A stretch of DNA of 64,000 nt from a virus, in the IMG/VR virus record IMGVR_UViG_3300045253_000023, positions 97,562 to 161,561 of that record. One strand, 5' to 3'. Positions 3,274 to 48,402 of the stretch are shown piece by piece. Made by a program: the position numbers and the translations under genes. How positions within the stretch are numbered: position 1 is the first letter of the stretch; the number at the start of each line of letters is the position of its first letter. The notes under the pieces were generated by a model. It worked only from the letters and a program-made list of their open reading frames with translations. It was not told where the DNA came from and ran no database searches.

Positions 3274-3362
3274 GCCCTCTTGGTGTAATCAGGCAAACAC
3301 GGACGTCTTAAACACGTCTTAAGCCATAAGGCTTGTCGGTTCGATCCCGACAGAGGGCACCA
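3274..3362 (+). tRNA. tRNA-Leu(TAA), long variable arm
   Basis: Acceptor GCCCTCT/AGAGGGC, anticodon arm GACGT-CTTAAAC-ACGTC, variable hairpin AAGCC-ATAA-GGCTT, CCA. Confidence 0.92.
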
Positions 3363-3395
3363 TCTCTTTTCGTCATATTCAGAAGGGTATTCATG

Positions 3396-4073
3396 ATGTG
3401 CGGAATAATTGGCATCGTTGCCACCAAGTCTTCGTTTCCGCTTGACAAATTCAAAGCACTTCTCCAAGAAGCCAAAATCCGTGGGCTGCATGCCACGGGA
3501 TTGGCTTTTGTCGATTCTGGGAAGCTGGTTTGCGAACGTCAGGCCACCAGCGCAGAAACATTCAAGTTTCCCGAGGCAGTCGCCAAGAAGTCGACGCGGG
3601 TTGCCATTGCGCACACTCGCTACAGCACTTCGGACTTGAAGTTCAATCAGCCTATCTTTTCACCCACCAAAGCAGTTATACTAAACGGAGTGATCTCTCA
3701 AGCCGATCCTTCGGAGTGGAAGAAGCTATTTGGTGTTGAGTGCGAAGGTCGCAATGATGCAGAGATTGTGTTACGCCTGCTTGAGAAGCAAGAACATCCA
3801 CTCAGTGTAGTGGACTCTTCACAGGCATGCATCTATGTTGACACTGAACTCAATGAGTTGAAGTTCTGGCGCAATGAACAGCGTCCACTGTATTGGCTGG
3901 AGACAGAAGATTGCTTGATTGTTGCTTCCACCAAGGACATCTTCAAACGTGCTGGATTCAAACAAGCACCAAGCAATTGCACACCATGCGTGGAGTATGG
4001 CATCAATCTTCAATCTTTCAAACGCACCAGCCAAATCATCCGCAAGGCAAATGAGGATTTACAGAATGTTTGA
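3396..4073 (+). CDS. class II (Ntn) glutamine amidotransferase
   Basis: N-terminal M-C-G-I-I-G nucleophile, RGLHATG, AHTRYSTS, LNGVI, NDAE motifs. Confidence 0.88.
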   Translation: MCGIIGIVATKSSFPLDKFKALLQEAKIRGLHATGLAFVDSGKLVCERQATSAETFKFPEAVAKKSTRVAIAHTRYSTSDLKFNQPIFSPTKAVILNGVISQADPSEWKKLFGVECEGRNDAEIVLRLLEKQEHPLSVVDSSQACIYVDTELNELKFWRNEQRPLYWLETEDCLIVASTKDIFKRAGFKQAPSNCTPCVEYGINLQSFKRTSQIIRKANEDLQNV

Positions 4074-4953
4074 CCCCAAGACATTCACCTATGGCTTCGA
4101 AATGGAAGTGGGTGATGTGCCTCGTGCACTGATGATTCCTTCACATTTGGGAGAGTGGGAACATTCTGAGCGTGACATTGTCAATGAGCGCGAGCCATAT
4201 CGAGGCATGTGTTCTGATCCAGATGGCATCAATCCACCAGTCGGCGGCGAGATCAACACCAAACCAACATTGGGATGGCCAGCTCAGGTCAAGCGCATTC
4301 TGGACATCAAAGAGTTCTGCGTGCTCTCTGGGCACATGCCCACTTCACCATTCACAACCCACAATCATCTTCATGTGCATGTCCCTGGGTTGATCGAGGA
4401 CATTGGAGCACTGCGTCAATTGATGGCATACATCGGCGACAACCAACAAACAATGGTTGACAGAGCATACCAGTTCTATGATCTGCCAACTATGAAGTTG
4501 GTTCCAAAGATCAAGACCTATTTGCAACATGATGGCGGCCGAATGTTCCATCCATGGCAGATCAAGAACATCATGTCTGCCACCAACTTCTATGACTTCA
4601 TTCGCGAACACAGACGCAATCAGCGTGGCACTGTGCTTGACCGAGTCTTGCGCAATGCAATCAACACATACTGCTTGAAGTTTGTCAAGACGGTGGAGTT
4701 CCGTTGCTTCCGCGCATCATTTGAAGAATCTAAGCTGGAATCATGTTTCAAGGTTGTTGAAGCCTTCATGGACAATGCGCTGAATCATCCAGAGCGCAGC
4801 ATGAATGAGTTCTTCAATGAGACTGAACTTGATTTGCCCATGATGACCTTTGATTTGGAACTGGCCCGAGGCTGGGCAGCAACCAAGGTGCCTGATCTGA
4901 ATGACAACATGGGCACCAGAAAGAATCGCACATATTATGAGGTGGAACAATGA
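4066..4953 (+). CDS. putative amidoligase (COOH-NH2 ligase, glutamine-synthetase-like fold)
   Basis: TYGFEME, GGEINTKP, HLHVHV, TVEFR motifs; overlaps the GATase stop. Confidence 0.8.
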   Translation: MFDPKTFTYGFEMEVGDVPRALMIPSHLGEWEHSERDIVNEREPYRGMCSDPDGINPPVGGEINTKPTLGWPAQVKRILDIKEFCVLSGHMPTSPFTTHNHLHVHVPGLIEDIGALRQLMAYIGDNQQTMVDRAYQFYDLPTMKLVPKIKTYLQHDGGRMFHPWQIKNIMSATNFYDFIREHRRNQRGTVLDRVLRNAINTYCLKFVKTVEFRCFRASFEESKLESCFKVVEAFMDNALNHPERSMNEFFNETELDLPMMTFDLELARGWAATKVPDLNDNMGTRKNRTYYEVEQ

Positions 4954-5534
4954 AACTTGGTCCAACAACTCGTGAAGCATTTGTCAAGGCTCTTGAGCTC
5001 ACACATGATCCAAGAGACAAATTTGCCAAGACATTTCTCCGCAAGGGAGATATGGTTGGTGGTTGGGGAGAATGGACTCTTGGAGCATTCTCTGAAAGTG
5101 GTCATCTGATGGGCGCATGCATGTTGTCTGTATCCAAGCGCGAGCCACATGTGATCAATCTGCAGTTGCTTCATACCTTCGCAATGTATCGTGGTTTTGG
5201 TATTGCTTCCAAGCTCATGGCATGGGCAGTGATGTATGGTTGCGCTGTTGCCAAATACTTCCGTGTGTCATCTGAACCAGAATCCATTGAGTTCTACAAG
5301 AAGATTGGATTCTATTTCTGGGGCGAACAGAAGAGTGGTTGTGCATTGTCGATGTTTCGCTATGAAGCAGATGCCAAGTGCGCATATGATCCACATGACC
5401 CAATTATCAGTGCCGCATTGAGCTCCAAGCGTCGCGGTGGTGTTCATCAGATGTATCCAACAGAGTTTGTGACTCTCTCATACGAGCCATACAATCGCTT
5501 CCAGGATGTACCATGTCTGTCGATTACCGTCTGA
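4950..5534 (+). CDS. GNAT-family acetyltransferase
   Basis: LLHTFAMYRGFGIASKL motif A and SIEFYKKIGF motif B. Confidence 0.82.
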   Translation: MKLGPTTREAFVKALELTHDPRDKFAKTFLRKGDMVGGWGEWTLGAFSESGHLMGACMLSVSKREPHVINLQLLHTFAMYRGFGIASKLMAWAVMYGCAVAKYFRVSSEPESIEFYKKIGFYFWGEQKSGCALSMFRYEADAKCAYDPHDPIISAALSSKRRGGVHQMYPTEFVTLSYEPYNRFQDVPCLSITV

Positions 5535-6568
5535 AAGAAAATCGCAAGCAAGCATTTGTGAAGTGGATGGTGTGGTCAATGCTCTATGAGGATTGCGACC
5601 CATCTTTGTTCATGACCAACTACCTGTTTGATCGCTTTGAAGTCAACTCAGAGCAACGACTCTGGTTGTGCTGGCTGTATGGCACCACGTACTATCTGCC
5701 AACAGCCTGGGTTATCTTCAATGAGTTCCCTGACTTTGAACTGGTGGATCAGAAGCGTCTTGAAGATTGGAACAATGCCAACTACAAGAGGCTCCGCTAT
5801 CAGACTGACACCAAGTACAACAAGGGTCATTTGCCTGCTCAGTTTGCTTCCTATCGCGCATGGATTCATTCCACTGCCAAAACACAGCGCGAGAAGTTCA
5901 AACAGTTGACCACAAACAAATGCCCAGAGAAGAACTATCAACTGGTGTTTGATGAGATCACAGGCAATCTGCACAAGTTCGGCCGATACACTGCATGGTT
6001 CTATATCCAGACCCTCAAGCACTGCGCCAAGATCAATGTTGATGCGCCCAATCTCATCCTTGAGGACTTCTCTGGCAGCAAGAGTCATCGCAATGGTCTC
6101 TGCTATGCAACTGGTCATGATGAATGGGTCAACCAGAAGCTGACCAAGGAACAAACAAACGTTCTCAATGTTGAAGCTGCCAAGATGCTCAAGGAAGTCA
6201 ATCTGTACATGATGCAGCTGGACTTCACGGAGCAGGCTGACTACTTCGCCATGGAGACCTGTTTGTGTTCCTTCAAGAAGCTGTTCCGCAAATCTCGAGG
6301 CAGGTATCTTGGATACTACCTTGACAGACAGGCTGAAGAGATCGCGAAGGTCGAGCAAGATGGTTGGAGCGGCATTTGCTGGAAACCATTATGGGATGCC
6401 CGCAATGAAACCATCAAGCGTCCTGAATTGTTGGGCGGTAATGTGGTGCCAGAGCGAATGGTCCACTTCCTAGACAATGGCTCGCTCGAAAGATTGGACT
6501 ATCTGTGGCCTGAGGACAAGACCAGCACTGAGACACTCTCGTTTGATCTAACTAAATTCTCTGTATAA
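5513..6568 (+). CDS. amino acid:DNA transferase (aGPT-Pplase2 / alpha-glutamyl-putrescinyl thymine pyrophosphorylase clade 2, HhH-glycosylase-like fold)
   Basis: RLWLCWLYGTTY, KFGRYTAWFY (HhH-like), SHRNGL, ETCLCSFKK, GRYLGYY motifs characteristic of this family. Confidence 0.82.
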   Translation: MSVDYRLKENRKQAFVKWMVWSMLYEDCDPSLFMTNYLFDRFEVNSEQRLWLCWLYGTTYYLPTAWVIFNEFPDFELVDQKRLEDWNNANYKRLRYQTDTKYNKGHLPAQFASYRAWIHSTAKTQREKFKQLTTNKCPEKNYQLVFDEITGNLHKFGRYTAWFYIQTLKHCAKINVDAPNLILEDFSGSKSHRNGLCYATGHDEWVNQKLTKEQTNVLNVEAAKMLKEVNLYMMQLDFTEQADYFAMETCLCSFKKLFRKSRGRYLGYYLDRQAEEIAKVEQDGWSGICWKPLWDARNETIKRPELLGGNVVPERMVHFLDNGSLERLDYLWPEDKTSTETLSFDLTKFSV

Positions 6569-32348: not shown

Positions 32349-32770
32349 GGGATACCAACTACATTGTGTTGATACCTGCTGTTGATCTTGATCCGCCGCA
32401 TGGGCTTGATCCTCACTCCGAGCGCGACCAGAAGAAGGTTGGCATGTTGCTTCGGGCGTTTGCTCTCAAAGGCTTTAATCCTGCTATGCCCGCACTGGTT
32501 GGCTATCCAAATGGCAAGGGCAGGGTCCAGTTGCTATCTGGAACGCATCGACACATGGCAGCCATGATGCTCAACATGTCACTGCCTGTTACAATCTGGC
32601 CTCGTGCTTATGTGGAGTGCGCATGGGGCACCGAGTACTGGCAAACAATCATTCGTGATATTGCCGTTGCTGAGCTCAAGAACGTCAAGGCTGTCACTGG
32701 TGACCTGATGGATGTGCTGCCTGATCCAGTTGATCCCACCGAATTCGACTATCGAGAACACACATGCTGA
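32345..32770 (+). CDS. ParB-like domain protein
   Basis: PALVG...QLLSGTHRHMAA motif. Confidence 0.55.
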   Translation: MRDTNYIVLIPAVDLDPPHGLDPHSERDQKKVGMLLRAFALKGFNPAMPALVGYPNGKGRVQLLSGTHRHMAAMMLNMSLPVTIWPRAYVECAWGTEYWQTIIRDIAVAELKNVKAVTGDLMDVLPDPVDPTEFDYREHTC

Positions 32771-33315
32771 CCGCAATCCTCGCAACGACTCGTCATGGTG
32801 GCCTTGGTTACCAAGGCGACATTCCATGGCGCAAGGCAGGCATCGCCAAAGAGATCACTCAACCTGACATGAACATCTTCCGCAAGTACACTGATGGCAA
32901 GCTGTGCTTGTTTGGTCGAAAGACCTATCTGGGCATGCGCGGCAATCGCCTTGATGCCACCCCATTGCTGCCCAATCGTCGCACTTGGGTGATTGGTACA
33001 ACCCCAATCAAGGAATTGAGCTCAGCGGACACCCAGTTCGACTCTCTCGACAATCTCAAGGCTGCACTGGCAACGTTGCCTGTTGAACAGGAAGTGGTCG
33101 TCTGCGGTGGTCTCGCACTGTACGATGCGCTGCTATCTCAGATTGACAAAATCATCTGGAATTGCTTCGCATTTGACTGCCCATTTGACGTCCAATGGCC
33201 GCATCATCCAACTCACCTTGAGCAAATGGGATTCGTGCTGACCTATCGTCAGATCGTCTCCCCTGTTCTGGGCACCGCAATTTTCTATCGTGAAGGCACA
33301 AAGGCTCCTTGGTGA
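32764..33315 (+). CDS. frd: dihydrofolate reductase
   Basis: GLGYQGDIPW, DMNIFRKYT, FGRKTY, LPNR, VCGGLALY. Confidence 0.9.
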   Translation: MLTAILATTRHGGLGYQGDIPWRKAGIAKEITQPDMNIFRKYTDGKLCLFGRKTYLGMRGNRLDATPLLPNRRTWVIGTTPIKELSSADTQFDSLDNLKAALATLPVEQEVVVCGGLALYDALLSQIDKIIWNCFAFDCPFDVQWPHHPTHLEQMGFVLTYRQIVSPVLGTAIFYREGTKAPW

Positions 33316-38313: not shown

Positions 38314-38958
38314 ATGAAATTCAAGTTCTATTCAATCTTGTTTGCCATTGTGGCAGCTGTATCCTTCGCAGGATCAGCATTTGCACAGGTAGCAGAATCA
38401 GTTCCTGCTGATGCTCTGTCCTACACATACGTGCAAGGCGCATATCAGTACGACAACATCAACGGCGCAAATGCAGTCAACACCCATGGTGGTGCTGTCA
38501 ATGCTTCCGTGAATCTTGGCACATCGCCATTCTTCGTTGTTGGTAGCTTCGATCGATTGTCCGACGCCAATGCCTTTGCTGGTGGTGTTGACACATATCG
38601 TCTCGGTGCTGGTCTCCATGTTCCTCTGGCCTTGTCGGTGGATGCTTATGGAACCGCTGGTGTATTGAAGACTTCAGTGACTGCTGTTGATCCAAACAGT
38701 CAGTTCAACATCACCATTCCACGTGACTTCACGACCTATGGATATGATTTTGAGGCAGGCTTGCGAGCCGCACTCACAGATCGCATTCAGGTCAAGGGTG
38801 GAGTTCAAGAAGAGCGTTTGACGCGCACTTCTGATTGGACGACATATGGTTTGGGTGAAGTCTTGTTCAAGGTGACAAATCATGTGGACTTGGTGGGTGC
38901 ATTGCGTGCCAATCAGGATGATCGCATCTTGTCAGGTGGAGTTCGAGTCGAACTGTAA
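38314..38958 (+). CDS. outer-membrane beta-barrel protein (Ax21/YfaZ-like)
   Basis: Sec signal peptide ending AFA; LSYTYVQGAY start; alternating amphipathic beta-strands. Confidence 0.75.
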   Translation: MKFKFYSILFAIVAAVSFAGSAFAQVAESVPADALSYTYVQGAYQYDNINGANAVNTHGGAVNASVNLGTSPFFVVGSFDRLSDANAFAGGVDTYRLGAGLHVPLALSVDAYGTAGVLKTSVTAVDPNSQFNITIPRDFTTYGYDFEAGLRAALTDRIQVKGGVQEERLTRTSDWTTYGLGEVLFKVTNHVDLVGALRANQDDRILSGGVRVEL

Positions 38959-39936: not shown

Positions 39937-40259
39937 CAGGAAAGCCAAGAAGAAACCTATGAAGAATGCAAAGAAGGTCAGCAAGCAAGCTGCAATGCCA
40001 TGTGCGTTGCCGAAGAAGGGACCAGGCATCTACAAGTTCACCAGAAACAATGTTGAGTTCTATGAATACTGGCGTGAAGTCGTCAATCCAACAACCAACA
40101 AGAAAGAACTCAAGTGCCTCGGAATCACAAATGTTGTTGCACTTGGACAAGATGGGCTGGAATCAATGAAGATGTTTCTTGATGACGCCTGGCAAGAAAA
40201 ACAGCCCGATGAACTCAAGAAGTTTGTCGAAGACATGAAGGCGAAAGGAATTCATTGAT

Positions 40260-41189
40260 ATGAAGAACCAGTACGAACATGACTATCTCGCATTGTTGCG
40301 CAAGTGCCTTGATGAAGGTGTTGGCGTGGAATCAGATCGCACCAAGATTGGAACCATCCAACTGACTGGTCAGACATTGGTTGCTGACAAGGTGGGAATG
40401 GAGTTTCCGACTCTGACAACGAGACCAACACCATTTCGTATTGCGTTCTGGGAAACAATGATGTTCCTCAATGGCATCACAGACACCAACTTTTTGGTCG
40501 ACAAAGACATCACCATCTGGCAAGCCAACACGACTCGCGAGTTCCTTGATGCTCGTGGATTGATTCATGTTCCGGAAGGCGACATGGGCAAGGGTTATGG
40601 CTTCCAGTGGCGTAATTTCGGTGGCGATGCCATGGGCGATCAGAAGGGTGTTGATCAGATTGCCAGTGTCTTGCACTCTCTTGAGAACGATCCATTTGGT
40701 CGTCGTCATCTCATTTCAACCTGGAATCCACAGCAACTGAATCAAATGGCGCTGCCGCCATGCCACATCATCAACCAATACATGATGGTGGAATTGCGCC
40801 CAGATGATTGCTATCGACTGGATTCGACCTTCTACATGCGTTCATGCGACATGGTGTATGGACTTCCATTCAACATGCAAGCATATGCATTCCTGAACAT
40901 TGCGTTCGCGGATTATCTGTCTCATACCAAAACCTATCGCGCCAAGAACATCAACGTGCTCCCTGGCAAGGTAACATTCATGGGTGGTGATTGCCACATC
41001 TATCGTAACCAGGTTGACATGGTCAGAGAACAGCTTGAGCGCGCACCATATGATGGAACGCAACTCAAGCTGGGCTATCCTATTCTCTCATTCAACCAAT
41101 TGTTGAATCTGTCATACGCAAAGGATGTTCGCATTGCGGCATTCAAGCGTCATGCTCAGTTCGACAATCGTCCGCCAATGGCTCAATGA
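40260..41189 (+). CDS. td: thymidylate synthase
   Basis: DRTKIGT, FPTLTT, IWQAN, YGFQWR, RR, MALPPCH, RSCD...GLPFN (Asn = dUMP specificity), DCHIY. Confidence 0.92.
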   Translation: MKNQYEHDYLALLRKCLDEGVGVESDRTKIGTIQLTGQTLVADKVGMEFPTLTTRPTPFRIAFWETMMFLNGITDTNFLVDKDITIWQANTTREFLDARGLIHVPEGDMGKGYGFQWRNFGGDAMGDQKGVDQIASVLHSLENDPFGRRHLISTWNPQQLNQMALPPCHIINQYMMVELRPDDCYRLDSTFYMRSCDMVYGLPFNMQAYAFLNIAFADYLSHTKTYRAKNINVLPGKVTFMGGDCHIYRNQVDMVREQLERAPYDGTQLKLGYPILSFNQLLNLSYAKDVRIAAFKRHAQFDNRPPMAQ

Positions 41190-41866
41190 CCAACTTTAGC
41201 GAAAGCCTCAATCCACATACGACACTGACCACTTCTGACGATGTCATCAAGACAGAACTCAATAACAGGGACGGGAAGCAGTTGGTTTGCGATCATGTTC
41301 AAGACAACCCTGAGCCCACTTCCCTCTTTGAGAGAGCACTGCGCAACATCCCCATCCACGATGGTCTTGGTCCCTTCACCAAGGCGAGTGAGGAACATTT
41401 TCAGTTCGAATGGTGAGGAGTTCTGAGCTTCATCCAGGATGATGAAGGCATTCTTGAATGAGCGACCTTGCATCTGCTCAAATGGCGCAAACTCAATGTC
41501 ATGGTTCTTGCGCGCAATCTCGTATTTGCCTTCACCCAGCTTCTCAAGCAGGACTTCGGTGATTGGACGGAACCATGGCTCAAGTTTCTCATCAAGAGAA
41601 CCAGGAAGCAAACCAGCGCTCTTGCCAACAGGAATCATTGGGCGTGTGAGGATGATCTTGCTGATTGTGCCGCGAATATACAACTCTGCGGCGATCGCCG
41701 CAGCGCAGTAAGTTTTACCTGTGCCTGCTGGACCAAGACAAAAGACTGTGGGGCTGCGATATATCGCCTGAATGTATTCCTTTTGCTTATCATTCAGTGG
41801 TAGAACTGGCTTGGACTTCTCGAGTTGCTGTTCTTTCCAACGGTCTTGCTTGGTCTTTTTGGTCAT
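41183..41866 (-). CDS. phoH: PhoH-family ATPase
   Basis: GPAGTGKT, LTRP, GLLPG, QGRSF, ILDEAQN, LTRLG, GDVAQ, DIVRS. Confidence 0.95.
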   Translation of the reverse strand: MTKKTKQDRWKEQQLEKSKPVLPLNDKQKEYIQAIYRSPTVFCLGPAGTGKTYCAAAIAAELYIRGTISKIILTRPMIPVGKSAGLLPGSLDEKLEPWFRPITEVLLEKLGEGKYEIARKNHDIEFAPFEQMQGRSFKNAFIILDEAQNSSPFELKMFLTRLGEGTKTIVDGDVAQCSLKEGSGLRVVLNMIANQLLPVPVIEFCLDDIVRSGQCRMWIEAFAKVGH

Positions 41867-41916
41867 GGACTTTCGTCTCCTTCCGTGGTTGAGGAATCAT
41901 GACTACTTACACCAGC

Positions 41917-41945
41917 TTTACTTTTACTTGAATGTCAGGTAGAAT
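41917..41945 (+). promoter_or_regulatory. sigma70-type promoter
   Basis: TTTACT-17 bp-TAGAAT, 7 nt before ATG 41953. Confidence 0.75.
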
Positions 41946-41952
41946 AGGGTCT

Positions 41953-42399
41953 ATGATAGTCAAATCACTAGGGTTTACAGGCACTGCGCTCGGCATGACT
42001 CCAATCCAGAAACATCTGGTAGATAAGTTCGTGCGCATGTATCAACCAGATGAAGCTCATCATGGAGACTGCGTTGGCGCTGATGCACAATTTCACGACA
42101 TTGTTTGCGAACCACTATTCCGCGCGAGTGTGAGAACCATCGTTCATGTTCATCCACCAGAAAATCCAAAAGCAAGAGCCTGGAAGAAAGGTGATCGATT
42201 GCACCCAGAACGAGATTACATCGTACGCAACCATGACATCGTAAAGGCTTCTGCCATATTGCTTGCAACACCTGGACAAATGCGAGAACAACTGAGAAGT
42301 GGAACATGGTCAACAATTCGATACGCATGGTTCAGGAAAGTACCAACTCATGTGATCTTTCCAGATGGATTCATCCAGAATTCGGAAGTGTTTGATTAG
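41953..42399 (+). CDS. SLOG-superfamily protein
   Basis: GFTGT, HHGDCVGAD, RNHDIV, SGTWSTIRYA. Confidence 0.65.
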   Translation: MIVKSLGFTGTALGMTPIQKHLVDKFVRMYQPDEAHHGDCVGADAQFHDIVCEPLFRASVRTIVHVHPPENPKARAWKKGDRLHPERDYIVRNHDIVKASAILLATPGQMREQLRSGTWSTIRYAWFRKVPTHVIFPDGFIQNSEVFD

Positions 42400-42446
42400 G
42401 TTGGAAATTTAGTGCTTGACTTTTGCGTTCTATGAGAGTAGAATAG
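42386..42446 (+). promoter_or_regulatory. early promoter module P11
   Basis: AAGTGTTTGATT, GGAAATTTAGTGC-TTGACT(42416)-17-TAGAAT(42439). Confidence 0.88.
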
Positions 42447-42471
42447 TTTCTGTCAATCACTCAGGTGCCAA

Positions 42472-42846
42472 ATGAAATCCACCGCGTTGTTTGTGTGTCT
42501 CGCTGTTTCTTCCTCAGCATTTGCTGATGGTTTGAACTCCATCCACATCGATTACATCGATGGGCATCAAGAAACAGTTTCATGGTGCAGCACACAAGTC
42601 AGTGATGAAGACCTAACTGCCACTTGCGACAACAGCATCTCTTCGACAAACGCAATCCAGGCTCCAATCACGAATGATTCACCCAATGTGAAGCTGACAG
42701 TGATGTCTCCTCATTTTGATTTCGTCCCATCTGATGGGTTCTGCGTCCAAACCAAGTTGACTCAACACACTGATGCGCACCAAACTATCAGCGAATATGA
42801 AGTCAATTGTGGTGACGTGATCTTCCGGAATAGGTTTGACTCATAA
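42472..42846 (+). CDS. secreted protein with C-terminal DVIFRNRFD motif
   Basis: Signal peptide ending AFA; four Cys in the mature part; ends GDVIFRNRFDS. Confidence 0.65.
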   Translation: MKSTALFVCLAVSSSAFADGLNSIHIDYIDGHQETVSWCSTQVSDEDLTATCDNSISSTNAIQAPITNDSPNVKLTVMSPHFDFVPSDGFCVQTKLTQHTDAHQTISEYEVNCGDVIFRNRFDS

Positions 42847-43247
42847 TGTACAGACTTTCGTATCAAGTCACCACACCATCTGCGCTGTTTCCCCGAGTTG
42901 GTAATGTGTACGTGATCACCAATTCGTGTCTTGAAACCCTCTGCAATGAGTTCAAAGCAATCCAAGCTGAGTTCCGTGCTGAGGCACACAATGCTGAGAT
43001 TGTTGAAATCATTCGTGTGAGTCCTGTTCACGAAAGTGAATATGAAGACTTCTTGGAGCCACTCAATGTCGCTACCAACACAGGCTGATTGGGGCAGTCA
43101 AGTCGTATTGCTTCATGCATCGACACCTCAGAAGATTTTCTTCACTGCTCTTGGCGGTGGTTACGCTTTTTCATGCCCACGTGACCAGTGGGAAGCAAAC
43201 AAACTGGTTGACGTTTCTCTATAACTCACATATCTGGAGTCTACATC

Positions 43248-43799
43248 ATGTTTCTTGAACACGTTGAACAAGTTCGCACCCCACAAACTGAAGCTGAACA
43301 GCTTTCCAACATGGCCGCTCAGTATCTTTCCGCTGTACCTGTGGTTGGGGCATCGCTCAGTTCTGCAATCAGCAAGGTTGAGAGATATGTTGCTGAGCAT
43401 CCAGAATCCGCGTCTGATGTTGCCAATTCCGAAGGTTTCGGCGCAATGCTCAATGCTCGTGCGCTGATCATCAAGCTGGCAGCAATCAACACCTTGACCC
43501 TGGTTCAGTTCCGTCATCTGGAACGCGAAACTGACACTCTCTCGCTGTTCAGTCAGGCTTTCCGTGAAGACCTGGAGCGTGCGCGCGAAACAATTGCCAA
43601 TGCTGAAGCCGAAGTGGCTCGCAAAGAAGGCGTCATTCAACGTTTGTTGAGTGCCAATGTCCAGAAGGTTCAAGAGCGCAAGGAAATTCTGCTGGGTCTT
43701 GCCACCTGGTTGCTTGAAGGCGTCGAGCGCACTCATGCTGAACTCGATGACACCGAAGCACTGTTGCGCAAGCTGGACACAAACAAACCAAAGGTGTAA
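43248..43799 (+). CDS. coiled-coil hypothetical protein
   Basis: GGAG SD; helical E/A/R-rich sequence. Confidence 0.6.
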   Translation: MFLEHVEQVRTPQTEAEQLSNMAAQYLSAVPVVGASLSSAISKVERYVAEHPESASDVANSEGFGAMLNARALIIKLAAINTLTLVQFRHLERETDTLSLFSQAFREDLERARETIANAEAEVARKEGVIQRLLSANVQKVQERKEILLGLATWLLEGVERTHAELDDTEALLRKLDTNKPKV

Positions 43800-44165
43800 G
43801 AATATGACACTTGCCAACCATGACTTTGTTGATCCAAACCACACAGCAATGTCTGTGTGGGACTGGAAGAATGCGCCGCAGTGGGCCAAGAACCAGGTGA
43901 ATGTTTCACCTGCCTGGGAAGGCGCATGGGTGGCTGTGCTGGACACTATCAAGTGGCCGAACTGGCGCGACATCCCATTGTTCCAATCTGGCACGCCATT
44001 CGGCGAGTCCGTCGTCTCAACATTTCATGGTTTCTATGTAGTCATTGTGGGTCTCCGTCATCGCAAGAGCACCGTTGTGCCTTTCGATCCAAATGACAAG
44101 ACACCCAACAAATTGAAGGCAGGTGCACAGCTTCAATACGAGCAGGAAGACGTTCGACAAGTGGC

Positions 44166-44194
44166 TTGACTTTCGGTTTGAAACCTTCTACAAT
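44166..44194 (+). promoter_or_regulatory. sigma70-type promoter for the dioxygenase gene
   Basis: TTGACT-17 bp-TACAAT, 9 nt before ATG 44204. Confidence 0.8.
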
Positions 44195-44203
44195 AGAGAT
44201 ACT

Positions 44204-45559
44204 ATGAGCAAATCAGTCCAGATTTACAACGCACCACGCAAACTGAACTGTGATCATCTCCTGGGAACTTTCCTGGGAGATGAACATTACAGCATGGTTG
44301 TTGATGATGACGTTGACTTCTATGCACCAACCAATCCACTTCATCCAAAGAACGATGAATCAACCATCCTGTTCAAGTTTCGCAAGAATGTGTTTCCTGC
44401 TGAACTTCAGAACTGCGCCTATGAGGGACTGATCCAGGCTGCTGGTCCATCACAGAATCGCGGTCTCGCTGCTGGTCCTCGCAATGAGAAGCTGCAGAAC
44501 AGGGATTGGGTCACAGCATTCCAGCTTGCTGTTCTCGAAGCATTCCTCGACACCGAGACACGTCTCGACGACAGTGATCCCATTGATCAAGTTATACTAA
44601 ATCAAGCTGCGAACAAGTATAACGGCACTCCATCACGTGGCCTTGTATGGCTTCGCAATCAGATCATCGCATCCGGAGAGACATATGAAGGCTTCTTCGA
44701 CAACTGGTTCGCTCGCACAAAACCCTTATCGCCTGTTGAACGATGCGCTGAGTCGAGGAGACTACAAGACAATTTCATCAGTGACACAACATATGCGAAC
44801 CCTGTCCTCTCAGGAATTGCTGGATTTTTTGATCGATATCCTCGAATTCCATACGGACGTGCGACGTCGTACACGGAAGCAAACCCTGATCTCTTCGCAA
44901 AGTCCTTCCCCTATCTCGCAGCATTGACCACATGCTTCAAGCATTTGTTGCCTCAACGATTTGCGAAGCAACAAGCAGCCTGCGACCAGCTTGATCCTCA
45001 CTTTGTCATTCCTGGTTCAGTGTTCACCACGCTGACAATCAACAAGACCTTCCGCACTGCTGCTCATCGAGACGCAGGTGACCTGGGTCGAGGCTTTTCC
45101 AATCTTGGTGTGATTCAACCACCAGGAAGCCGAGACTTCAAAGGCGGAATGTTGGTGTTGCCTGAGTATGAAGTGGCAATCAATATTCGACCTGGTGACC
45201 TGTTGCTGATTGCGAATCATGATGCAATCCATGGCAACACCGCTATTGAACCTGTCAGAGCAGATTGTTGCCCAGAATGTATTGAGCGTATGAGCATCGT
45301 GGCATACTTCCGCGAGTCCATGCTTGAGCTCGGCTCATGGGAATATGAGCAATATCGCCGCCAGTATGTTGAGCATCGCAAGGCGCTTGGCAAGAAGCAT
45401 CCAGACTCCAATGGTCCTTTGTGGAATGGTATATCGAAAGGAATGTGGGATGGTCCGGAATGGCGTGAGTTCTTGAGTTCAAAGGATGGTGGTCCAGAGA
45501 TGCTGGAGAAATACCACCCTCTATCAGCTGAAGGCAATCTCGAATCCTTCTTTACATAA
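44204..45559 (+). CDS. TET/JBP-family 2-oxoglutarate/Fe(II) dioxygenase
   Basis: FTTLTINKTFRTAAHRDAGD (HxD), GGMLVLPEY, PGDLLL, IHGNT (distal His), RMSIVAYFRE (2OG-binding Arg). Confidence 0.85.
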   Translation: MSKSVQIYNAPRKLNCDHLLGTFLGDEHYSMVVDDDVDFYAPTNPLHPKNDESTILFKFRKNVFPAELQNCAYEGLIQAAGPSQNRGLAAGPRNEKLQNRDWVTAFQLAVLEAFLDTETRLDDSDPIDQVILNQAANKYNGTPSRGLVWLRNQIIASGETYEGFFDNWFARTKPLSPVERCAESRRLQDNFISDTTYANPVLSGIAGFFDRYPRIPYGRATSYTEANPDLFAKSFPYLAALTTCFKHLLPQRFAKQQAACDQLDPHFVIPGSVFTTLTINKTFRTAAHRDAGDLGRGFSNLGVIQPPGSRDFKGGMLVLPEYEVAINIRPGDLLLIANHDAIHGNTAIEPVRADCCPECIERMSIVAYFRESMLELGSWEYEQYRRQYVEHRKALGKKHPDSNGPLWNGISKGMWDGPEWREFLSSKDGGPEMLEKYHPLSAEGNLESFFT

Positions 45560-45615
45560 ACAACAGCTAAATACTCATACAGGGTCAATTATTTGCTGTT
45601 TGGAGATGTACCGAA

Positions 45616-45852
45616 ATGGAAAAATTCAGAGCCTTCTTGTCTGATCTCAGAAAATCAAGCGTGACAGCACTTATTCTGCTGGCCATCATCGGAATGTTTG
45701 TGTACAACAACACTTCCCGATTGAACAACATCGAACACGCCTATTGTGAGAACGGAATTCTCGTGCTCCAGAAGCAAGACCAGGATTTGTACATGGTACT
45801 TGACTCTACGAACAAACCTGTCACATGTAAACTAAAGGATGAAGCACAATGA
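45616..45852 (+). CDS. small membrane-anchored late protein
   Basis: CTAAATA upstream; one TM, periplasmic Cys pair. Confidence 0.55.
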   Translation: MEKFRAFLSDLRKSSVTALILLAIIGMFVYNNTSRLNNIEHAYCENGILVLQKQDQDLYMVLDSTNKPVTCKLKDEAQ

Positions 45853-46055
45853 ACAAAGGAAGATACATTCCATTGCCAGCCACACCAAAAGGCGTGACAT
45901 CGCGCATTCCAACTCGTCAAGTTGGTGTGTTGTCTCAAGATGAAGCTATCAAGCAAACCCAGCGTGTAGCACTTGAGTGTGCACGTGCAATTGCCTCTGG
46001 CAAGAATCCAAAGCTGGTGGGCCGCTAAACCCTCTTTTTCGTCATATAGGTTATC

Positions 46056-46649
46056 ATGAAAACTGTGATCGCGATTGGCGGGCAACCCGCCACAGGCAAG
46101 ACGACCCTCATGAAAGGGTTGATGGCTTTCCTGGACAAGAAATACGGCAAGAATGAGTTTGGTCAACAGGCTGAACTCATCACTGCGCATCACTGGAAGC
46201 ATGGTGGTGTCTACATTCTTGGAAGCTACAAAGAAGACCAGACATTCTCTGGCACCGACACCTTCTCAATGGCTGTTCAGCCAAAAGCCTTGCCGTGGCT
46301 CAAGAGCCTGCGCGATGGATCAACTGTGATCTATGAAGGTGATCGACTCTTCAATCAAACAATGCTTGAATCCATTGCAGATGAATGCGATGACTTCGCT
46401 CTGGAATGCATCATGCTGGATGTTCCAGAAGAAACACTGCATCAGCGCCATATCAATCGTGGCGACACACAAACGGCTCAGTTCCTCAAGGGTCGCGCAA
46501 CCAAATATCTTGGCATCGACATGAATATGATGCTTCAAGGTTACATCAACCATTACCCTCACGAAACCCCAGAACAAGGCATCGCTATCATCTATCATAT
46601 CCTTGATGTGATTGAGAAGACAGTCGAAGCTGAAGAACTTCCATTCTGA
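46056..46649 (+). CDS. P-loop kinase, 5-hydroxymethyluracil DNA kinase (5-HMUDK)-like
   Basis: IGGQPATGKTT, LGSY...FSGTDTFSMAVQP, YEGDRL, RHINRG...QFLKGRATK motifs. Confidence 0.75.
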   Translation: MKTVIAIGGQPATGKTTLMKGLMAFLDKKYGKNEFGQQAELITAHHWKHGGVYILGSYKEDQTFSGTDTFSMAVQPKALPWLKSLRDGSTVIYEGDRLFNQTMLESIADECDDFALECIMLDVPEETLHQRHINRGDTQTAQFLKGRATKYLGIDMNMMLQGYINHYPHETPEQGIAIIYHILDVIEKTVEAEELPF

Positions 46650-46667
46650 TCAACAAGGACATATAAC

Positions 46668-47003
46668 ATGGCTGAATACAACGTTCACTATCTGCGCTTC
46701 CGCTACACCATGGAAGAAATCATCGCCAAGATCACCAGCGAAGATGACAACTCCATCAGCATCGAGAATCCAGTCACACTGGTTCCTGATCCATCCAAGC
46801 CAAACAGCTTGCGCTTCTTGCCATGGTCCATTCTCTGCGGCAAGCGCGAAATGACCTTCCCGCGTGGTGATTTCCTGTTGATCGGCCCAGTGCCTGAATC
46901 ACTGGCGAAGGGTTATGTCGGCGCCACCAGCGGCATTGAAATTGCCAACGTGGTTCCAATCAACCGCAAGCTCAATGCTGGCTCCAGCGAGATTCATGGT
47001 TGA
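46668..47003 (+). CDS. conserved T4-like hypothetical protein (Sm-like fold possible)
   Basis: EEIIAKI...IENPV...FLPW...GATSGI pattern. Confidence 0.55.
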   Translation: MAEYNVHYLRFRYTMEEIIAKITSEDDNSISIENPVTLVPDPSKPNSLRFLPWSILCGKREMTFPRGDFLLIGPVPESLAKGYVGATSGIEIANVVPINRKLNAGSSEIHG

Positions 47004-47005
47004 GG

Positions 47006-47120
47006 AAAGTACTCTATAGCGTACTTTTGATCATGAAAGTACTCTATACAGTACGTCACAAGGTGCTCTTAAGGAGACATTAAGTCACTTTATTAGCTCT
47101 TAAGAGCACCTGTTATCCAG
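47006..47120. repeat. intergenic direct and inverted repeat cluster
   Basis: GAAAGTACTCTATA twice; 13-bp inverted repeat AGGTGCTCTTAAG (47061) / CTTAAGAGCACCT (47099). Confidence 0.8.
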
Positions 47121-47198
47121 TTATCGTATCGAGTAAGACCCTATTGACTTCTGATTCATTTCACACTATGCTAGTCTTATCACATCGAGGCATTCATC

Positions 47199-48053
47199 AT
47201 GACCACCAACTTGAAAGACAATTCAATCATCTTCCGTATCCAGAACAGGAACAGCATGCCGTGGAAGTTTGTCGATCCGACTGTCCGCTATTCCCGATTC
47301 TCGAAAGCGGGCAAGTTCTGGGCTGGTGCGGGCCCACTCCTGCAACACATCAACCTGAATTCTGATCGTTACTTCAACGACGGATTTGTGGTCTTGGCAT
47401 ATGATGCCAACACACTCCAGGCCGCAACCAACCATCCATACAACTCTGTTCCTGCCAAGGACATTTATGCCATTCGCGCAAAGCTGAAGAACCGCAAGCC
47501 TGATCGTCAAATCCTGTTTGCTATTCGATTCAACAATTCCACCCCAATCACATACAGCCGATTCAAAGGATGGGGCGGAACAGATACAACCATGCGTATG
47601 GTTGATCTCACTACGGTGAAGCGTTTCCTGCGACGCAAAACACGTTTCAATCATCGCCCAGCCACACAATTCAACAACACTTCCATTGTCGTGTTCTCAG
47701 TCATTCCTGACGTTAGCATCATCAACAAGGTGTATGAGCAGGATTTGTATCGTGGCGAAATTGGCTTTGATCGCAAGTATGTTGATCAACTCCTTGATGG
47801 TCTGGAGAAGGTGCGTGATTTCTATGCCTATTCCGAGAACTATCAGGCTCCCATCAATATTCCTTCCGTCTGGTATCCTGATTCAATCAAAAATGCTCAG
47901 GGCATCAGCTATGAACTGACAACCACACACCACCAAGCCAAGGACGGATTGTCTTGTATTGGTGCAGTCGGTCATGTTCCTGTTTTCCCATCTGCGCCTG
48001 GTGCAAATGGCGCATCTGATCCAAACGCAGCAGGCACCAGCCGCTGCTTCTGA
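47199..48053 (+). CDS. hypothetical protein
   Basis: 284-aa ORF with GAGG SD, after TTGACT(47144)-17-TATGCT. Confidence 0.65.
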   Translation: MTTNLKDNSIIFRIQNRNSMPWKFVDPTVRYSRFSKAGKFWAGAGPLLQHINLNSDRYFNDGFVVLAYDANTLQAATNHPYNSVPAKDIYAIRAKLKNRKPDRQILFAIRFNNSTPITYSRFKGWGGTDTTMRMVDLTTVKRFLRRKTRFNHRPATQFNNTSIVVFSVIPDVSIINKVYEQDLYRGEIGFDRKYVDQLLDGLEKVRDFYAYSENYQAPINIPSVWYPDSIKNAQGISYELTTTHHQAKDGLSCIGAVGHVPVFPSAPGANGASDPNAAGTSRCF

Positions 48054-48087
48054 GTAACACAACCCCAACAATACTGGAGTTTATATC

Positions 48088-48402
48088 ATGCCAAAGGGTA
48101 TTCCAAAGAACGCCAAGCCGAAGGTCATTCGCACCAACGACTTGCCATCCTCAGTTGCAGATCAGAAGAAGCTGCTGAAGATGATTCGCGAAGCCTCTGA
48201 TGCAACAACCATGATCGCTGCTCAGCGCGACAAGCTGAATGACGTCAAGGCCAACATCCAAGAGGAATTCCCAATCACAGTCAAGCTGATGAACAAGCTG
48301 ATTGACTTTGAATATCGCCAGAACTTCGACCAGGTGTATGGTGAATGGGAAGAGATCGCACATGCCCATGAAAAGCTGGTCACAGCTGGAGAAGCAAAGT
48401 GA
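48088..48402 (+). CDS. dsbA: T4 DsbA-like dsDNA-binding protein
   Basis: MIREASD...DVKANIQEEF...KLMNKLIDFEYRQNF pattern; synteny with 33/59/32. Confidence 0.75.
   Translation: MPKGIPKNAKPKVIRTNDLPSSVADQKKLLKMIREASDATTMIAAQRDKLNDVKANIQEEFPITVKLMNKLIDFEYRQNFDQVYGEWEEIAHAHEKLVTAGEAK

What the first reader, a model, noticed from the sequence alone, without database searches (positions are those of the whole stretch)
44166..46649. TET/JBP dioxygenase plus 5-hmU-DNA kinase: post-replicative entry route completing a split hypermodification pathway
Seen: a 451-aa 2OG-Fe(II) enzyme with TET/JBP-type HxD...H...R motifs and its own promoter, about 0.5 kb from a P-loop kinase with 5-HMUDK-like motifs. 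The window also has a canonical-looking thymidylate synthase (GLPFN, IWQAN, YGFQWR) and DHFR, and no recognisable C5-cytosine methyltransferase or dUMP hydroxymethylase. Established: characterised thymidine-hypermodifying phages make 5-hmdU in the nucleotide pool, whereas trypanosome JBP oxidises T to 5-hmU in DNA. Inference: this phage replicates with ordinary T, oxidises selected T in DNA, phosphorylates it and passes it to the transferase operon 40 kb away. That is a six-enzyme, entirely on-DNA pathway linking JBP chemistry to amino acid:DNA transfer, probably for anti-restriction. Similar gene associations have been proposed computationally; I know of no biochemical demonstration.
Basis: partly seen in the sequence, partly recalled or inferred. 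Interest (0 to 1): 0.9.

Follow-up and report, generated by a model that had tools for sequence, protein, structure and literature searches.

The report
Split phage thymine hypermodification pathway entry
An uncultured T4-like phage carries a TET/JBP-type DNA oxidase and a DNA-base kinase that most likely start the chemical decoration of ordinary thymine in finished DNA. This route is already published, and here its six genes are simply split between two places in the genome.

Summary
Window 44166-46649 has a sigma-70-like promoter, a 451-aa TET/JBP dioxygenase (HxD, H, R intact, TET2-like fold) and, 496 bases on, a PF18751 P-loop kinase.

The complete 161.5-kb genome has one ThyA-family gene that scores like a true thymidylate synthase. 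It also has a DHFR, and no C5-cytosine methylase, dUMP hydroxymethylase, ParB or TET-associated glycosyltransferase.

In 80 metavirome relatives the same six genes (TET, GATase, amidoligase, GNAT, AADT, kinase) usually form one co-directional operon. The window therefore holds a split copy of that operon.

The kinase is not in the verified 5-HMUDK family (PF18748) but is a remote homologue of it (hhalign 96.7%).

The idea is not new. Lee et al. 2021 proposed TET_JBP as a substitute for dUMP hydroxymethylase. O'Toole et al. 2026 showed phage T-dioxygenase activity and the GATase/PF18751/AADT linkage. This scan has also flagged such cassettes in at least 35 other genomes.

Two points go beyond those papers. 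This member has no ParB. TET ends in the same LxxFFT tail as the phage's own DNA polymerase, and AADT ends in a similar DLTKF tail, which suggests tethering to the sliding clamp.

Verdict: new member of a known kind, moderate interest.

The parts
44166..44194 (+). sigma-70-like promoter TTGACT-17-TACAAT in front of the dioxygenase gene
   Evidence: The pattern TTGACT-N17-TAnnnT occurs 14 times in the window, all on the + strand, against 0.37 expected by chance.
44204..45559 (+). TET/JBP-family 5-methylpyrimidine dioxygenase (5mYOX), 451 aa. Iron and 2OG ligands are H288, D290, H343 and R362. A large insertion spans about aa 61-200 and a C-terminal extension spans aa 371-451.
   Evidence: PF12851 at E 1.9e-19. 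phrog_24024 matches the full length at E 4e-163. AF2 model pLDDT 81. VIA-align Z 19.0 to TET2 and 17.9 to NgTET1 over model residues 1-390. Foldseek E 3e-10 to TET2. More than 2400 homologues of about 430-450 aa.
45539..45556 (+). C-terminal tail L-E-S-F-F-T of the dioxygenase, a candidate sliding-clamp-binding peptide
   Evidence: The phage's own family-B DNA polymerase (G000:C1:55572-58148) ends in L-T-Q-F-F-T. 46 of 47 distinct TET tails in relatives end in (S/T)LExFF. A gp45-type clamp gene is present.
45616..46028 (+). two small ORFs (78 aa and 59 aa) between the dioxygenase and the kinase, function unknown
   Evidence: No Pfam match. Not conserved next to TET in 80 relatives.
46056..46649 (+). 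P-loop kinase of family PF18751 (Ploopntkinase3), 197 aa, Walker A at aa 9-17. Predicted 5-hmU-DNA kinase.
   Evidence: PF18751 at E 2.7e-11. Beside TET and AADT in 40 of 80 relatives. Fused to TET in P0064. hhalign probability 96.7% against M6 gp54 plus the ViI PF18748 kinase.
46668..47003 (+). 111-aa ORF, the last gene before the next promoter at 47144, function unknown
   Evidence: No Pfam match. Promoter-like site at 47144-47172.
3333..4073 (+). class II (Ntn) glutamine amidotransferase domain protein, first gene of the displaced tailoring operon
   Evidence: GATase_6 at E 4e-9. Next to TET in 45 of 80 relatives.
4051..4953 (+). amidoligase (glutamine-synthetase-like COOH-NH2 ligase), about 300 aa from the ATG at 4051
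   Evidence: 15 of 17 homologues match PF12224 Amidoligase_2, best E 6.5e-8. The window copy is 42-58% identical to most of them (23-26% to a divergent subgroup) but does not match the model on its own.
4950..5534 (+). GNAT acetyltransferase
   Evidence: Acetyltransf_10/7/1 at E about 3e-6. Present in the operon of 24 of 80 relatives.
5513..6568 (+). amino acid:DNA transferase (AADT, formerly aGPT-Pplase), 351 aa, ending in D-L-T-K-F-S-V
   Evidence: PF18724 at E 2.5e-21. It is the only copy in the genome. Found in 42 of 80 relatives next to TET. About 24 of 33 relatives' tails, by my reading of the list, are of the LExF type; 17 of 33 match the regex.
40260..41189 (+). thymidylate synthase (ThyA type), the only ThyA-family gene of the genome
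   Evidence: PF00303 at 207.6 bits over profile positions 2-260 of 266. Best PDB match is Cryptosporidium DHFR-TS at E 1e-54, with the catalytic motifs present. Known hydroxymethylases score 51-78 bits.
32764..33315 (+). dihydrofolate reductase
   Evidence: PF00186 at E 7.7e-16.

Best explanation
Window 44166-46649 is a transcription unit with a sigma-70-like (presumably early) promoter in a T4-like phage. It encodes the two entry enzymes of a post-replicative thymidine hypermodification pathway. The other four genes of that pathway (GATase, amidoligase, GNAT, AADT) sit 40 kb away at 3333-6568.

Proposed steps:
1. The phage makes ordinary dTMP with its own thymidylate synthase and DHFR, and replicates with T.
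2. The 451-aa TET/JBP dioxygenase (Fe(II), 2-oxoglutarate, O2) hydroxylates the methyl group of selected thymines in DNA to give 5-hydroxymethyluracil.
3. The PF18751 P-loop kinase phosphorylates that hydroxyl, giving 5-phosphomethyl-dU.
4. AADT displaces the phosphate with an amino acid or an amine.
5. The GATase, amidoligase and GNAT amidate and acetylate the appended group. The final base is chemically unknown.

The dioxygenase probably works without the ParB-like activator that some relatives carry. The dioxygenase ends in the same tail as the phage's DNA polymerase (LxxFFT), and AADT ends in a similar one (DLTKF against the polymerase's DLTQF). Both are therefore probably held on the gp45-type sliding clamp, so that modification follows the replication fork.

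What is shown here: gene identities, catalytic residues, the fold, operon linkage in relatives, and absence of the alternative routes. What is inferred: the substrates of every enzyme, the order of steps 4-5, clamp binding, and the anti-restriction purpose.
For: TET identity and intact active site.

One operon in relatives:
- Within 10 kb of TET in 80 IMG/VR loci, GATase occurs in 45, AADT in 42, kinase in 40, amidoligase in 26 and GNAT in 24.
- All are co-directional. The commonest order is TET-GAT-amidoligase-GNAT-AADT-kinase.
- By Pfam over whole records, the kinase is in 29 and AADT in 28 of 50, with 27 shared.
- A kinase-TET fusion protein exists, P0064.
- Caulobacter phage Cr30 has TET, AADT and a homologue of the window's kinase (34% identity, E 9e-22; it does not itself reach PF18751) within 9 kb.

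T rather than 5mC or pool-made 5-hmdU:
- No PF00145 in this complete genome or in 50 related records.
- The single ThyA-family gene scores 207.6 bits. T4 td scores 215+83. The hydroxymethylases score 78 (SPO1), 66 (M6), 54 (ViI), 51 (PhiW-14) and 58 (T4 gp42).
- It is 33.5% identical to T4 td exon 1 but 20-25% to the hydroxymethylases.
- DHFR is present.
- The complete relative G001 carries TET, AADT and kinase but no ThyA-family gene at all. Cr30's ThyA scores 373 bits.

Kinase: hhalign probability 96.7%, E 4e-10, 127 columns against the verified 5-HMUDK M6 gp54 plus the ViI PF18748 kinase. Shared motifs go beyond Walker A (G-K/D-Y...G-x-D-R, and F-E-G).

Literature:
- PMC8989533 sections 15 and 21: 5-HMUDK and AADT chemistry, and TET_JBP clusters that lack dUMP hydroxymethylase.
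- PMC13229309 sections 5-7 and 12: phage T-dioxygenases shown in vivo and in vitro, linked with GATase, the PF18751 kinase and AADT PF18724.

Clamp tail.

Genome signature consistent with protective thymine modification: 38 CCGG against 130 expected, 34 of them within TCCGGA.
Against: - No enzyme of this subfamily (about 430-450 aa, T4-like phages) is known to me to have been assayed.
- O'Toole et al. report that some clade C1 enzymes without ParB showed no activity on T or 5mC in E. coli.
- In the papers I read, no PF18751 kinase has been assayed on 5hmU-DNA, and this one misses the verified PF18748 model.
- The last 35-40 residues of the thymidylate synthase are divergent, so dTMP synthesis is inferred, not proven.
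- Phage T-dioxygenases also oxidise 5mC in vitro (abstract of PMC13229309), so a host-methylated cytosine substrate is not excluded.
- Clamp binding rests only on a tail motif. The one precedent, T4 alpha-glucosyltransferase with gp45, is contested.
- The two halves have separate promoters, and co-expression has not been shown.
Confidence: 0.8

Rival explanations
1. The dioxygenase acts on 5-methylcytosine rather than thymine. The 5mC would be installed by a host methylase or by an unrecognised phage methylase. The kinase and AADT would then build a hypermodified cytosine.
For: Phage TETs of clades A and B are 5mC dioxygenases, and a kinase acting on 5hmC was suggested for some contigs (PMC8256090). 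The characterised T-dioxygenases also oxidise 5mC in vitro (PMC13229309 abstract).
Against: No PF00145 methylase in this complete genome or in 50 related records. In the papers I read, characterised AADT and 5-HMUDK chemistry is on 5-hmdU. CCGG sites survive only where flanked by T, which points to thymine.
Confidence: 0.07
2. The dioxygenase and kinase do not feed the distant AADT operon. 5hmU would be an end product or an epigenetic-type mark, or the dioxygenase would act on RNA. The kinase would be an ordinary nucleotide kinase.
For: The two loci are 40 kb apart with separate promoters. Some relatives carry TET without kinase or AADT. DLP6 and 5 metavirome records pair it with a TET-associated glycosyltransferase instead. 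The kinase is annotated as adenylate kinase in mycobacteriophages.
Against: The six genes are one operon in most operon-bearing relatives, and TET is fused to the kinase in P0064. AADT would have no source of 5hmU in this genome without TET. No TAGT in this genome. The kinase shares family-specific motifs with verified 5-HMUDKs.
Confidence: 0.08
3. The ThyA homologue is really a dUMP hydroxymethylase. 5-hmdU would then enter DNA before replication, as in ViI, M6 or SPO1, and the TET enzyme would be redundant or do something else.
For: The C-terminal 35-40 residues of the ThyA homologue are divergent. All cultured thymidine-hypermodifying phages characterised by 2021 use a ThyA-like hydroxymethylase (PMC8989533).
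Against: 207.6 bits on PF00303 against 51-78 bits for the hydroxymethylases. E 1e-54 to solved thymidylate synthases, with the nucleophile Cys, the PFN Asn, and the YGFQWR, RSxD and HIY motifs. A DHFR is present, which only a dihydrofolate-producing enzyme needs. Relatives with the same cassette have either no ThyA-family gene or a 373-bit canonical one.
Confidence: 0.03

Closest known systems
Metavirome 5mYOX (TET_JBP) thymidine-hypermodification clusters: Lee et al. 2021 NAR (PMC8989533, Fig. 2 sequences 22-25) and O'Toole et al. 2026 PNAS (PMC13229309, clade C1)
   Same: The Pfam set is the same: PF12851 dioxygenase, PF18751 kinase, PF18724 AADT and PF13522/PF13537 GATase. There is no C5-methylase and no dUMP hydroxymethylase. 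The proposed logic is the same: T to 5hmU on DNA, then phosphorylation and transfer. Some close relatives carry a ParB-like gene in the operon.
   Different: This genome has no ParB-like gene. The cluster is split into two loci 40 kb apart. The enzyme is about 450 aa, with an insertion of roughly 140 aa where the paper places its 'variable insertion'. I could not test its placement in the paper's clades.
Trypanosome JBP1/JBP2 and base J synthesis
   Same: A TET/JBP-fold enzyme hydroxylates thymine in DNA to 5hmU as the first step of a hypermodification.
   Different: In base J, 5hmU is glucosylated. Here it is predicted to be phosphorylated and aminated. Relatives such as Stenotrophomonas phage DLP6 pair the same TET clade with a TET-associated glycosyltransferase, which is closer to base J.
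Phage M6, PaMx11, ViI, PhiW-14 and SP10 thymidine hypermodification (5-HMUDK plus AADT)
   Same: AADT family PF18724 (M6 gp51 at 159.6 bits). A P-loop nucleobase kinase sits next to it. GNAT tailoring occurs as in PaMx11.
   Different: Those phages make 5-hmdU in the nucleotide pool with a ThyA-like hydroxymethylase (51-78 bits on PF00303). M6 and ViI use a PF18748 kinase; no PF18748 match was found in PhiW-14 and SP10 was not searched. This phage uses a DNA dioxygenase and a PF18751 kinase.
T4/RB69 DNA polymerase C-terminal tail binding the gp45 sliding clamp (my own knowledge: Berdis et al. 1996; Shamoo and Steitz 1999)
   Same: A short hydrophobic C-terminal peptide, L-x-x-F-F, is shared between this phage's polymerase and the dioxygenase; AADT ends in a similar D-L-T-K-F-S-V.
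   Different: It sits on DNA-modifying enzymes rather than on replication or transcription proteins. Binding has not been tested. The only comparable claim, T4 alpha-GT with gp45, is disputed.

Membership tests
TET/JBP 5-methylpyrimidine dioxygenases (Pfam PF12851) | Match to the family model above its curated cut-off | tested here: met
   69.9 bits against a cut-off of 34.9, E 1.9e-19. 72.3 bits in the genome scan.
TET/JBP 5-methylpyrimidine dioxygenases (Pfam PF12851) | HxD...H iron ligands and the 2OG-binding Arg | tested here: met
   H288, D290, H343 and R362 are present and invariant in 22 homologues.
TET/JBP 5-methylpyrimidine dioxygenases (Pfam PF12851) | TET-type double-stranded beta-helix fold | tested here: met
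   VIA-align Z 19.0 (TET2, 256 residues aligned, rmsd 3.6), 18.2 (CcTet) and 17.9 (NgTET1). These stand well above AlkB-type hits at Z 13 or less. Foldseek E 3e-10.
TET/JBP 5-methylpyrimidine dioxygenases (Pfam PF12851) | Oxidation of thymine (not 5mC) in DNA | not testable with these tools
   Only indirect evidence: no C5-methylase in this genome or in 50 relatives, and linkage to the AADT and kinase genes.
ParB-dependent phage T-dioxygenases (O'Toole et al. 2026, clade C1) | A ParB-like activator gene in the neighbourhood | tested here: not met
   No PF02195 match in the genome at E<=1. No homologue of the ParB-like protein that 7 relatives carry (tblastn and hmmsearch best E 0.2-0.8). Those relatives' protein is ParB-like (PDB ParB at E 1.6e-4).
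ParB-dependent phage T-dioxygenases (O'Toole et al. 2026, clade C1) | Extended C-terminus beyond the catalytic core | tested here: met
   About 80 conserved residues follow the R362 strand.
ParB-dependent phage T-dioxygenases (O'Toole et al. 2026, clade C1) | Linkage with GATase, PF18751 kinase and PF18724 AADT | tested here: met
   The Pfam accessions are those listed in the preprint's methods.
ParB-dependent phage T-dioxygenases (O'Toole et al. 2026, clade C1) | Placement in the authors' similarity network or tree | not testable with these tools
   No sequences or contig names are given in the held text, and no supplements are held.
5-hmdU DNA kinases, 5-HMUDK (Pfam PF18748; M6 gp54, ViI gp67) | Match to the family model | tested here: not met
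   No PF18748 match in the whole genome at E<=1. M6 gp54 scores 65 bits and the ViI kinase 386 bits. BLASTP against M6 gp54 finds only the P-loop, E 0.028.
5-hmdU DNA kinases, 5-HMUDK (Pfam PF18748; M6 gp54, ViI gp67) | Profile-level homology with shared motifs beyond Walker A | tested here: met
   hhalign probability 96.7%, E 4.3e-10, 127 columns.
5-hmdU DNA kinases, 5-HMUDK (Pfam PF18748; M6 gp54, ViI gp67) | Phosphorylation of 5-hmdU within DNA | not testable with these tools
   A biochemical assay is needed.
P-loop nucleotide kinase 3 (Pfam PF18751) | Match above the cut-off, and the conserved Walker A Lys/Thr | tested here: met
   43.8 bits against a cut-off of 27. K15 and T17 are invariant in 16 homologues.
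Thymidylate synthase ThyA (dTMP-forming) | Full-length high-scoring match, with the catalytic Cys, the dUMP-specifying Asn and the folate-site motifs | tested here: met
   207.6 bits over profile positions 2-260 of 266. PPCH, PFN, YGFQWR, RSCD and GDCHIY are present.
Thymidylate synthase ThyA (dTMP-forming) | A partner DHFR to recycle dihydrofolate | tested here: met
   PF00186 at 32764-33315.
Thymidylate synthase ThyA (dTMP-forming) | dTMP formation, or thyA complementation | not testable with these tools
   The C-terminal 35-40 residues are divergent, so an assay is still wanted.
Phage dUMP/dCMP hydroxymethylases (SPO1 gp29, M6 gp58, ViI, PhiW-14, T4 gp42) | Closer similarity to known hydroxymethylases than to thymidylate synthases | tested here: not met
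   20-25% identity, E 1e-4 to 1e-6 or weaker, against the hydroxymethylases. 33.5% identity, E 1e-28, against T4 td exon 1. The Pfam score gap is 207.6 against 51-78 bits.
gp45 sliding-clamp clients of T4-like phages | A C-terminal tail like that of the phage's own DNA polymerase | tested here: met
   The polymerase ends in L-T-Q-F-F-T and TET ends in L-E-S-F-F-T. Only 5 of 240 ORFs match the loose pattern. 46 of 47 TET tails in relatives match.
gp45 sliding-clamp clients of T4-like phages | Physical binding to the clamp | not testable with these tools
   The clamp gene is present. A binding assay or complex prediction is needed.

The most novel reading that the evidence does not exclude
In this ParB-less member, the dioxygenase and the amino acid:DNA transferase are tethered to the phage's gp45-type sliding clamp by polymerase-like C-terminal tails. 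Thymine oxidation and decoration would then travel with the replication fork. In T4-like phages the clamp, together with the enlarged insertion domain, would do the job that the ParB-like CTPase clamp does for the published ParB-dependent T-dioxygenases. The PF18751 kinase would be a second family of nucleobase kinases, and the end product a chemically new amidated or acetylated thymine.
Probability: 0.35. Interest if true: 0.6.

Novelty: new member of a known kind. Interest (0 to 1): 0.35.

Why it matters
The finding gives a complete, circularly closed T4-like genome in which the whole logic of the published TET-initiated thymidine hypermodification route can be read. It has a true thymidylate synthase plus DHFR, no hydroxymethylase, no cytosine methylase, and one dioxygenase, one kinase and one AADT.

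That makes it a clean candidate for reconstituting the pathway and identifying the still unknown final base.

It also raises two testable questions that the published work leaves open:
- How do T-dioxygenases without a ParB activator engage double-stranded DNA? The candidate answer is the sliding-clamp tail.
- Is the PF18751 kinase a genuine 5hmU-DNA kinase?

Hypermodified thymines block restriction enzymes and are of use as tools for DNA labelling.

Tried and rejected
- Megablast of 40000-48100 against GenBank phages found no match.
- The search for related loci with the single protein found nothing. An alignment was needed.
- I first read the first 245 residues of the dioxygenase as a separate N-terminal domain, possibly ParB-like. 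I rejected this because TET2, NgTET1 and CcTet align from model residue 1 or 2. The N-terminal strands therefore belong to the core, and residues of about 61-200 are an insertion.
- ParB was sought three ways in the genome (Pfam scan, tblastn, and a custom HMM built from the relatives' ParB-like protein). None gave a hit.
- The 284-aa neighbour (47199-48053) was tested as a possible cryptic activator. It has no Pfam, PHROG or PDB match, and the Atlas model is poor with nothing above chance.
- TET-associated glycosyltransferase PF20691 is absent from this genome.
- The profile of the amidoligase family against PDB sequences gave nothing.
- Iyer et al. 2013, the original computational paper, could not be fetched.
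- The careful tree did not finish in time. Only the quick IQ-TREE tree was used.
- No residue-level discriminator between T and 5mC specificity could be taken from the papers.
- I did not use the second structure prediction.


Full report
**What is there**

The window is the last 64 kb of a complete 161,561-bp IMG/VR virus record with direct terminal repeats. Its gene content marks it as a T4-like phage. Identified genes include DsbA, the gp59 loader, DNA ligase, RNase H, PhoH, a family-B polymerase and a gp45-type clamp.

At 44166-44194 lies TTGACT-17-TACAAT. The pattern TTGACT-N17-TAnnnT occurs 14 times in the window, all on the + strand, against 0.37 expected. It is therefore a real promoter class of this phage.

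It matches Pfam Tet_JBP at E 1.9e-19 and phrog_24024 over its full length. H288, D290, H343 and R362 are invariant in an alignment of 22 homologues.

An AlphaFold model (pLDDT 81) matches TET2, CMD1, CcTet and NgTET1 at Z 19.0 to 17.9, well above AlkB-type enzymes (Foldseek). The structural alignments start at model residue 1 or 2. What looks like a 245-residue N-terminal extension is therefore really the first core strands plus an insertion of roughly 140 residues (about aa 61-200). This is the position where O'Toole et al. place their 'variable insertion'. About 80 residues follow the core.

After 496 bases, holding two small unknown ORFs, comes a 197-aa P-loop kinase at 46056-46649. It belongs to family PF18751.

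- The thymidylate synthase homologue at 40260-41189 has the quoted motifs.
- A DHFR lies at 32764-33315.
- The operon at 3333-6568 encodes four proteins. These are a class II glutamine amidotransferase, a roughly 300-aa protein whose homologues match Amidoligase_2 in 15 of 17 cases, a GNAT, and an amino acid:DNA transferase of family PF18724.
- The whole genome has no PF00145 cytosine methylase, no second ThyA-family gene, no ParB_N, no PF18748 kinase and no TET-associated glycosyltransferase.

**Are the two loci one pathway?**

The dioxygenase belongs to a very large family of 430-450-aa proteins, with more than 2400 hits. Many are on contigs of 150-175 kb.

I fetched 80 IMG/VR loci with up to 10 kb on each side of the gene and searched them with all the window's proteins. 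Only six window proteins recur: TET (80), GATase (45), AADT (42), kinase (40), amidoligase (26) and GNAT (24).

These genes are always co-directional and nearly abutting. The commonest order is TET-GATase-amidoligase-GNAT-AADT-kinase. Pfam scans of whole records agree: the kinase is in 29 and AADT in 28 of 50 records, with 27 shared.

One database protein, P0064, is a kinase-TET fusion. Caulobacter phage Cr30 has TET, AADT and a homologue of the window's kinase (34% identity, E 9e-22; it does not itself reach PF18751) within 9 kb.

The window therefore holds a split copy of a single operon.

**Thymine, not 5mC or pool-made 5-hmdU**

None of 50 related records has a C5-methylase.

The ThyA homologue scores 207.6 bits on PF00303 over nearly the whole model. 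T4 td scores 215+83 bits. The hydroxymethylases of SPO1, M6, ViI, PhiW-14 and T4 gp42 score only 78, 66, 54, 51 and 58 bits.

The ThyA homologue is 33.5% identical to T4 td exon 1 (E 1e-28), against 20-25% to the hydroxymethylases. Its best solved relatives are true thymidylate synthases at E 1e-54.

The complete relative G001 has the TET, AADT and kinase genes but no ThyA-family gene at all. Cr30 has a 373-bit canonical ThyA. A pool route to 5-hmdU therefore has no candidate enzyme anywhere in this family.

One caveat remains. The last 35-40 residues of the window's enzyme are divergent, so complementation would still be worth doing.

**The kinase**

The verified 5-hmdU DNA kinase M6 gp54 and the ViI kinase match PF18748 (65 and 386 bits). 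The window's kinase and genome do not. BLASTP against M6 gp54 sees only the P-loop.

A profile of 16 PF18751-type kinases against M6 gp54 plus the ViI kinase gives hhalign probability 96.7%, E 4e-10, over 127 columns. The shared motifs are G-(K/D)-Y...G-x-D-R and F-E-G.

So the kinase is a remote homologue in the same operon position, not a member of the assayed family. Its activity on 5hmU-DNA is inferred.

**ParB and alternative branches**

Seven relatives carry a 421-451-aa gene between GNAT and AADT. Its profile matches solved ParB proteins at E 1.6e-4 and has the DGxxR-type motif. This fits the ParB-dependent class of O'Toole et al.

In a quick tree the window's enzyme sits in a clade with 99% SH-aLRT support. 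That clade also holds operon-bearing loci, two ParB-bearing loci and Stenotrophomonas phage DLP6. ParB presence is scattered over the tree.

This genome has no such gene.

DLP6 and five metavirome records lack the kinase and AADT. They pair TET with a TET-associated glycosyltransferase instead. The dioxygenase is thus a shared entry module with at least two tailoring branches, and this phage has only the kinase/AADT branch.

**A lead from earlier notes that I tested: clamp tails**

The phage's family-B polymerase ends in L-T-Q-F-F-T and the dioxygenase ends in L-E-S-F-F-T. Only 5 of 240 ORFs fit even a loose version of this pattern.

In relatives, 46 of 47 distinct TET tails end in (S/T)LExFF, and most AADT tails end in an LExF-type motif. 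The window's AADT ends in D-L-T-K-F-S-V, close to the polymerase's D-L-T-Q-F. The kinase, GATase and amidoligase have no such tail. A gp45-type clamp gene is present.

In T4 and RB69 the polymerase tail binds the clamp (my own knowledge). Clamp tethering of the two base-flipping enzymes is therefore a reasonable but untested inference. The only comparable claim, T4 alpha-glucosyltransferase with gp45, has been disputed.

**Genome signature**

CCGG occurs 38 times against about 130 expected, and 34 of the 38 are in TCCGGA. This fits context-dependent protective modification of thymine. It does not prove it.

**Comparison with what is known**

Lee et al. 2021 (PMC8989533, section 21) described metavirome contigs that lack a dUMP hydroxymethylase. 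These contigs instead encode a TET_JBP protein next to thymidine hypermodification genes, along with amidoligase and glutamine amidotransferase domains. The authors proposed that the enzyme converts thymine to hydroxymethyluracil in DNA.

Burke et al. 2021 found T oxidation by one phage TET.

O'Toole et al. 2026 (PMC13229309) showed T-dioxygenase activity of two phage subclasses in vivo and in vitro. They state that the ParB-dependent one is consistently linked with GATases, P-loop kinases and AADTs. Their preprint lists PF18751, PF18724, PF13522 and PF13537 as the models used.

This scan has also noted such cassettes in at least 35 other genomes.

What is particular here is the split arrangement, the absence of ParB, the complete genome context, and the clamp-like tails.

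**Verdict**

This is a new member of a known kind, of moderate interest.

Noticed in passing
window 2784, 6614, 8004, 10590, 12627, 17817, 20291, 24301, 28173, 30703, 34848, 42416, 44166, 47144 (all + strand): There are 14 copies of TTGACT-N17-TAnnnT against 0.37 expected. About eleven share a longer consensus (TTGACTTT...GTAGAAT or a close variant). The copies in front of the hypermodification units (2784, 44166) and at 47144 are variants. This may reflect two promoter classes.
   Followed up: partly
L027:1813-3078, L028:2391-3695, L045:13483-14784, L072:7696-9015, L097:4921-6276: Relatives carry a 421-451-aa ParB-like protein between GNAT and AADT. Its first ~100 residues carry a short YG...YIG motif that resembles GIY-YIG by eye only (not tested against a model). 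It is absent from this genome.
   Followed up: partly
L003 (Stenotrophomonas phage DLP6) 5054-9344; L006 (Caulobacter phage Cr30) 13354-14682: The TET/JBP genes of DLP6, Cr30 and S-CBWM1 are annotated as 'SNF2 DNA repair protein'. In DLP6 the two genes upstream are a TET-associated glycosyltransferase (PF20691) and a sugar nucleotidyltransferase, both annotated as hypothetical.
   Followed up: partly
window 46056-46649; L100:3686-4249 (M6 gp54); L006:5789-6334: DNA-base kinases of both families are annotated as 'terminase small subunit' (phrog_800) or 'adenylate kinase' in public phage records. This includes the experimentally verified M6 gp54.
   Followed up: no
window 4053-4073 and the GATase genes of relatives (L019-L098): Nearly all GATase homologues carry a conserved D-L-Q motif in their last 12 residues (window: E-D-L-Q-N-V). 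It may be a docking peptide for a partner enzyme.
   Followed up: no
L006:8209-9390 (Cr30 gp121); L055:11320-12603; L089:13310-14587; L026:4442-4864: Some relatives insert a myo-inositol-1-phosphate synthase, or a low-molecular-weight phosphatase, into the same operon. This suggests different final bases.
   Followed up: no
whole genome G000 (161,561 bases): CCGG occurs 38 times against about 130 expected, 34 of them as TCCGGA. TGCA and CTAG are also under-represented (0.56 and 0.61 of expectation).
   Followed up: partly
window 38314-38958 and 41183-41866 (-): A phage-encoded outer-membrane beta-barrel protein (OMP_b-brl, E 5e-8). A PhoH gene is one of the few convincingly annotated genes on the minus strand in this otherwise plus-strand block.
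   Followed up: no
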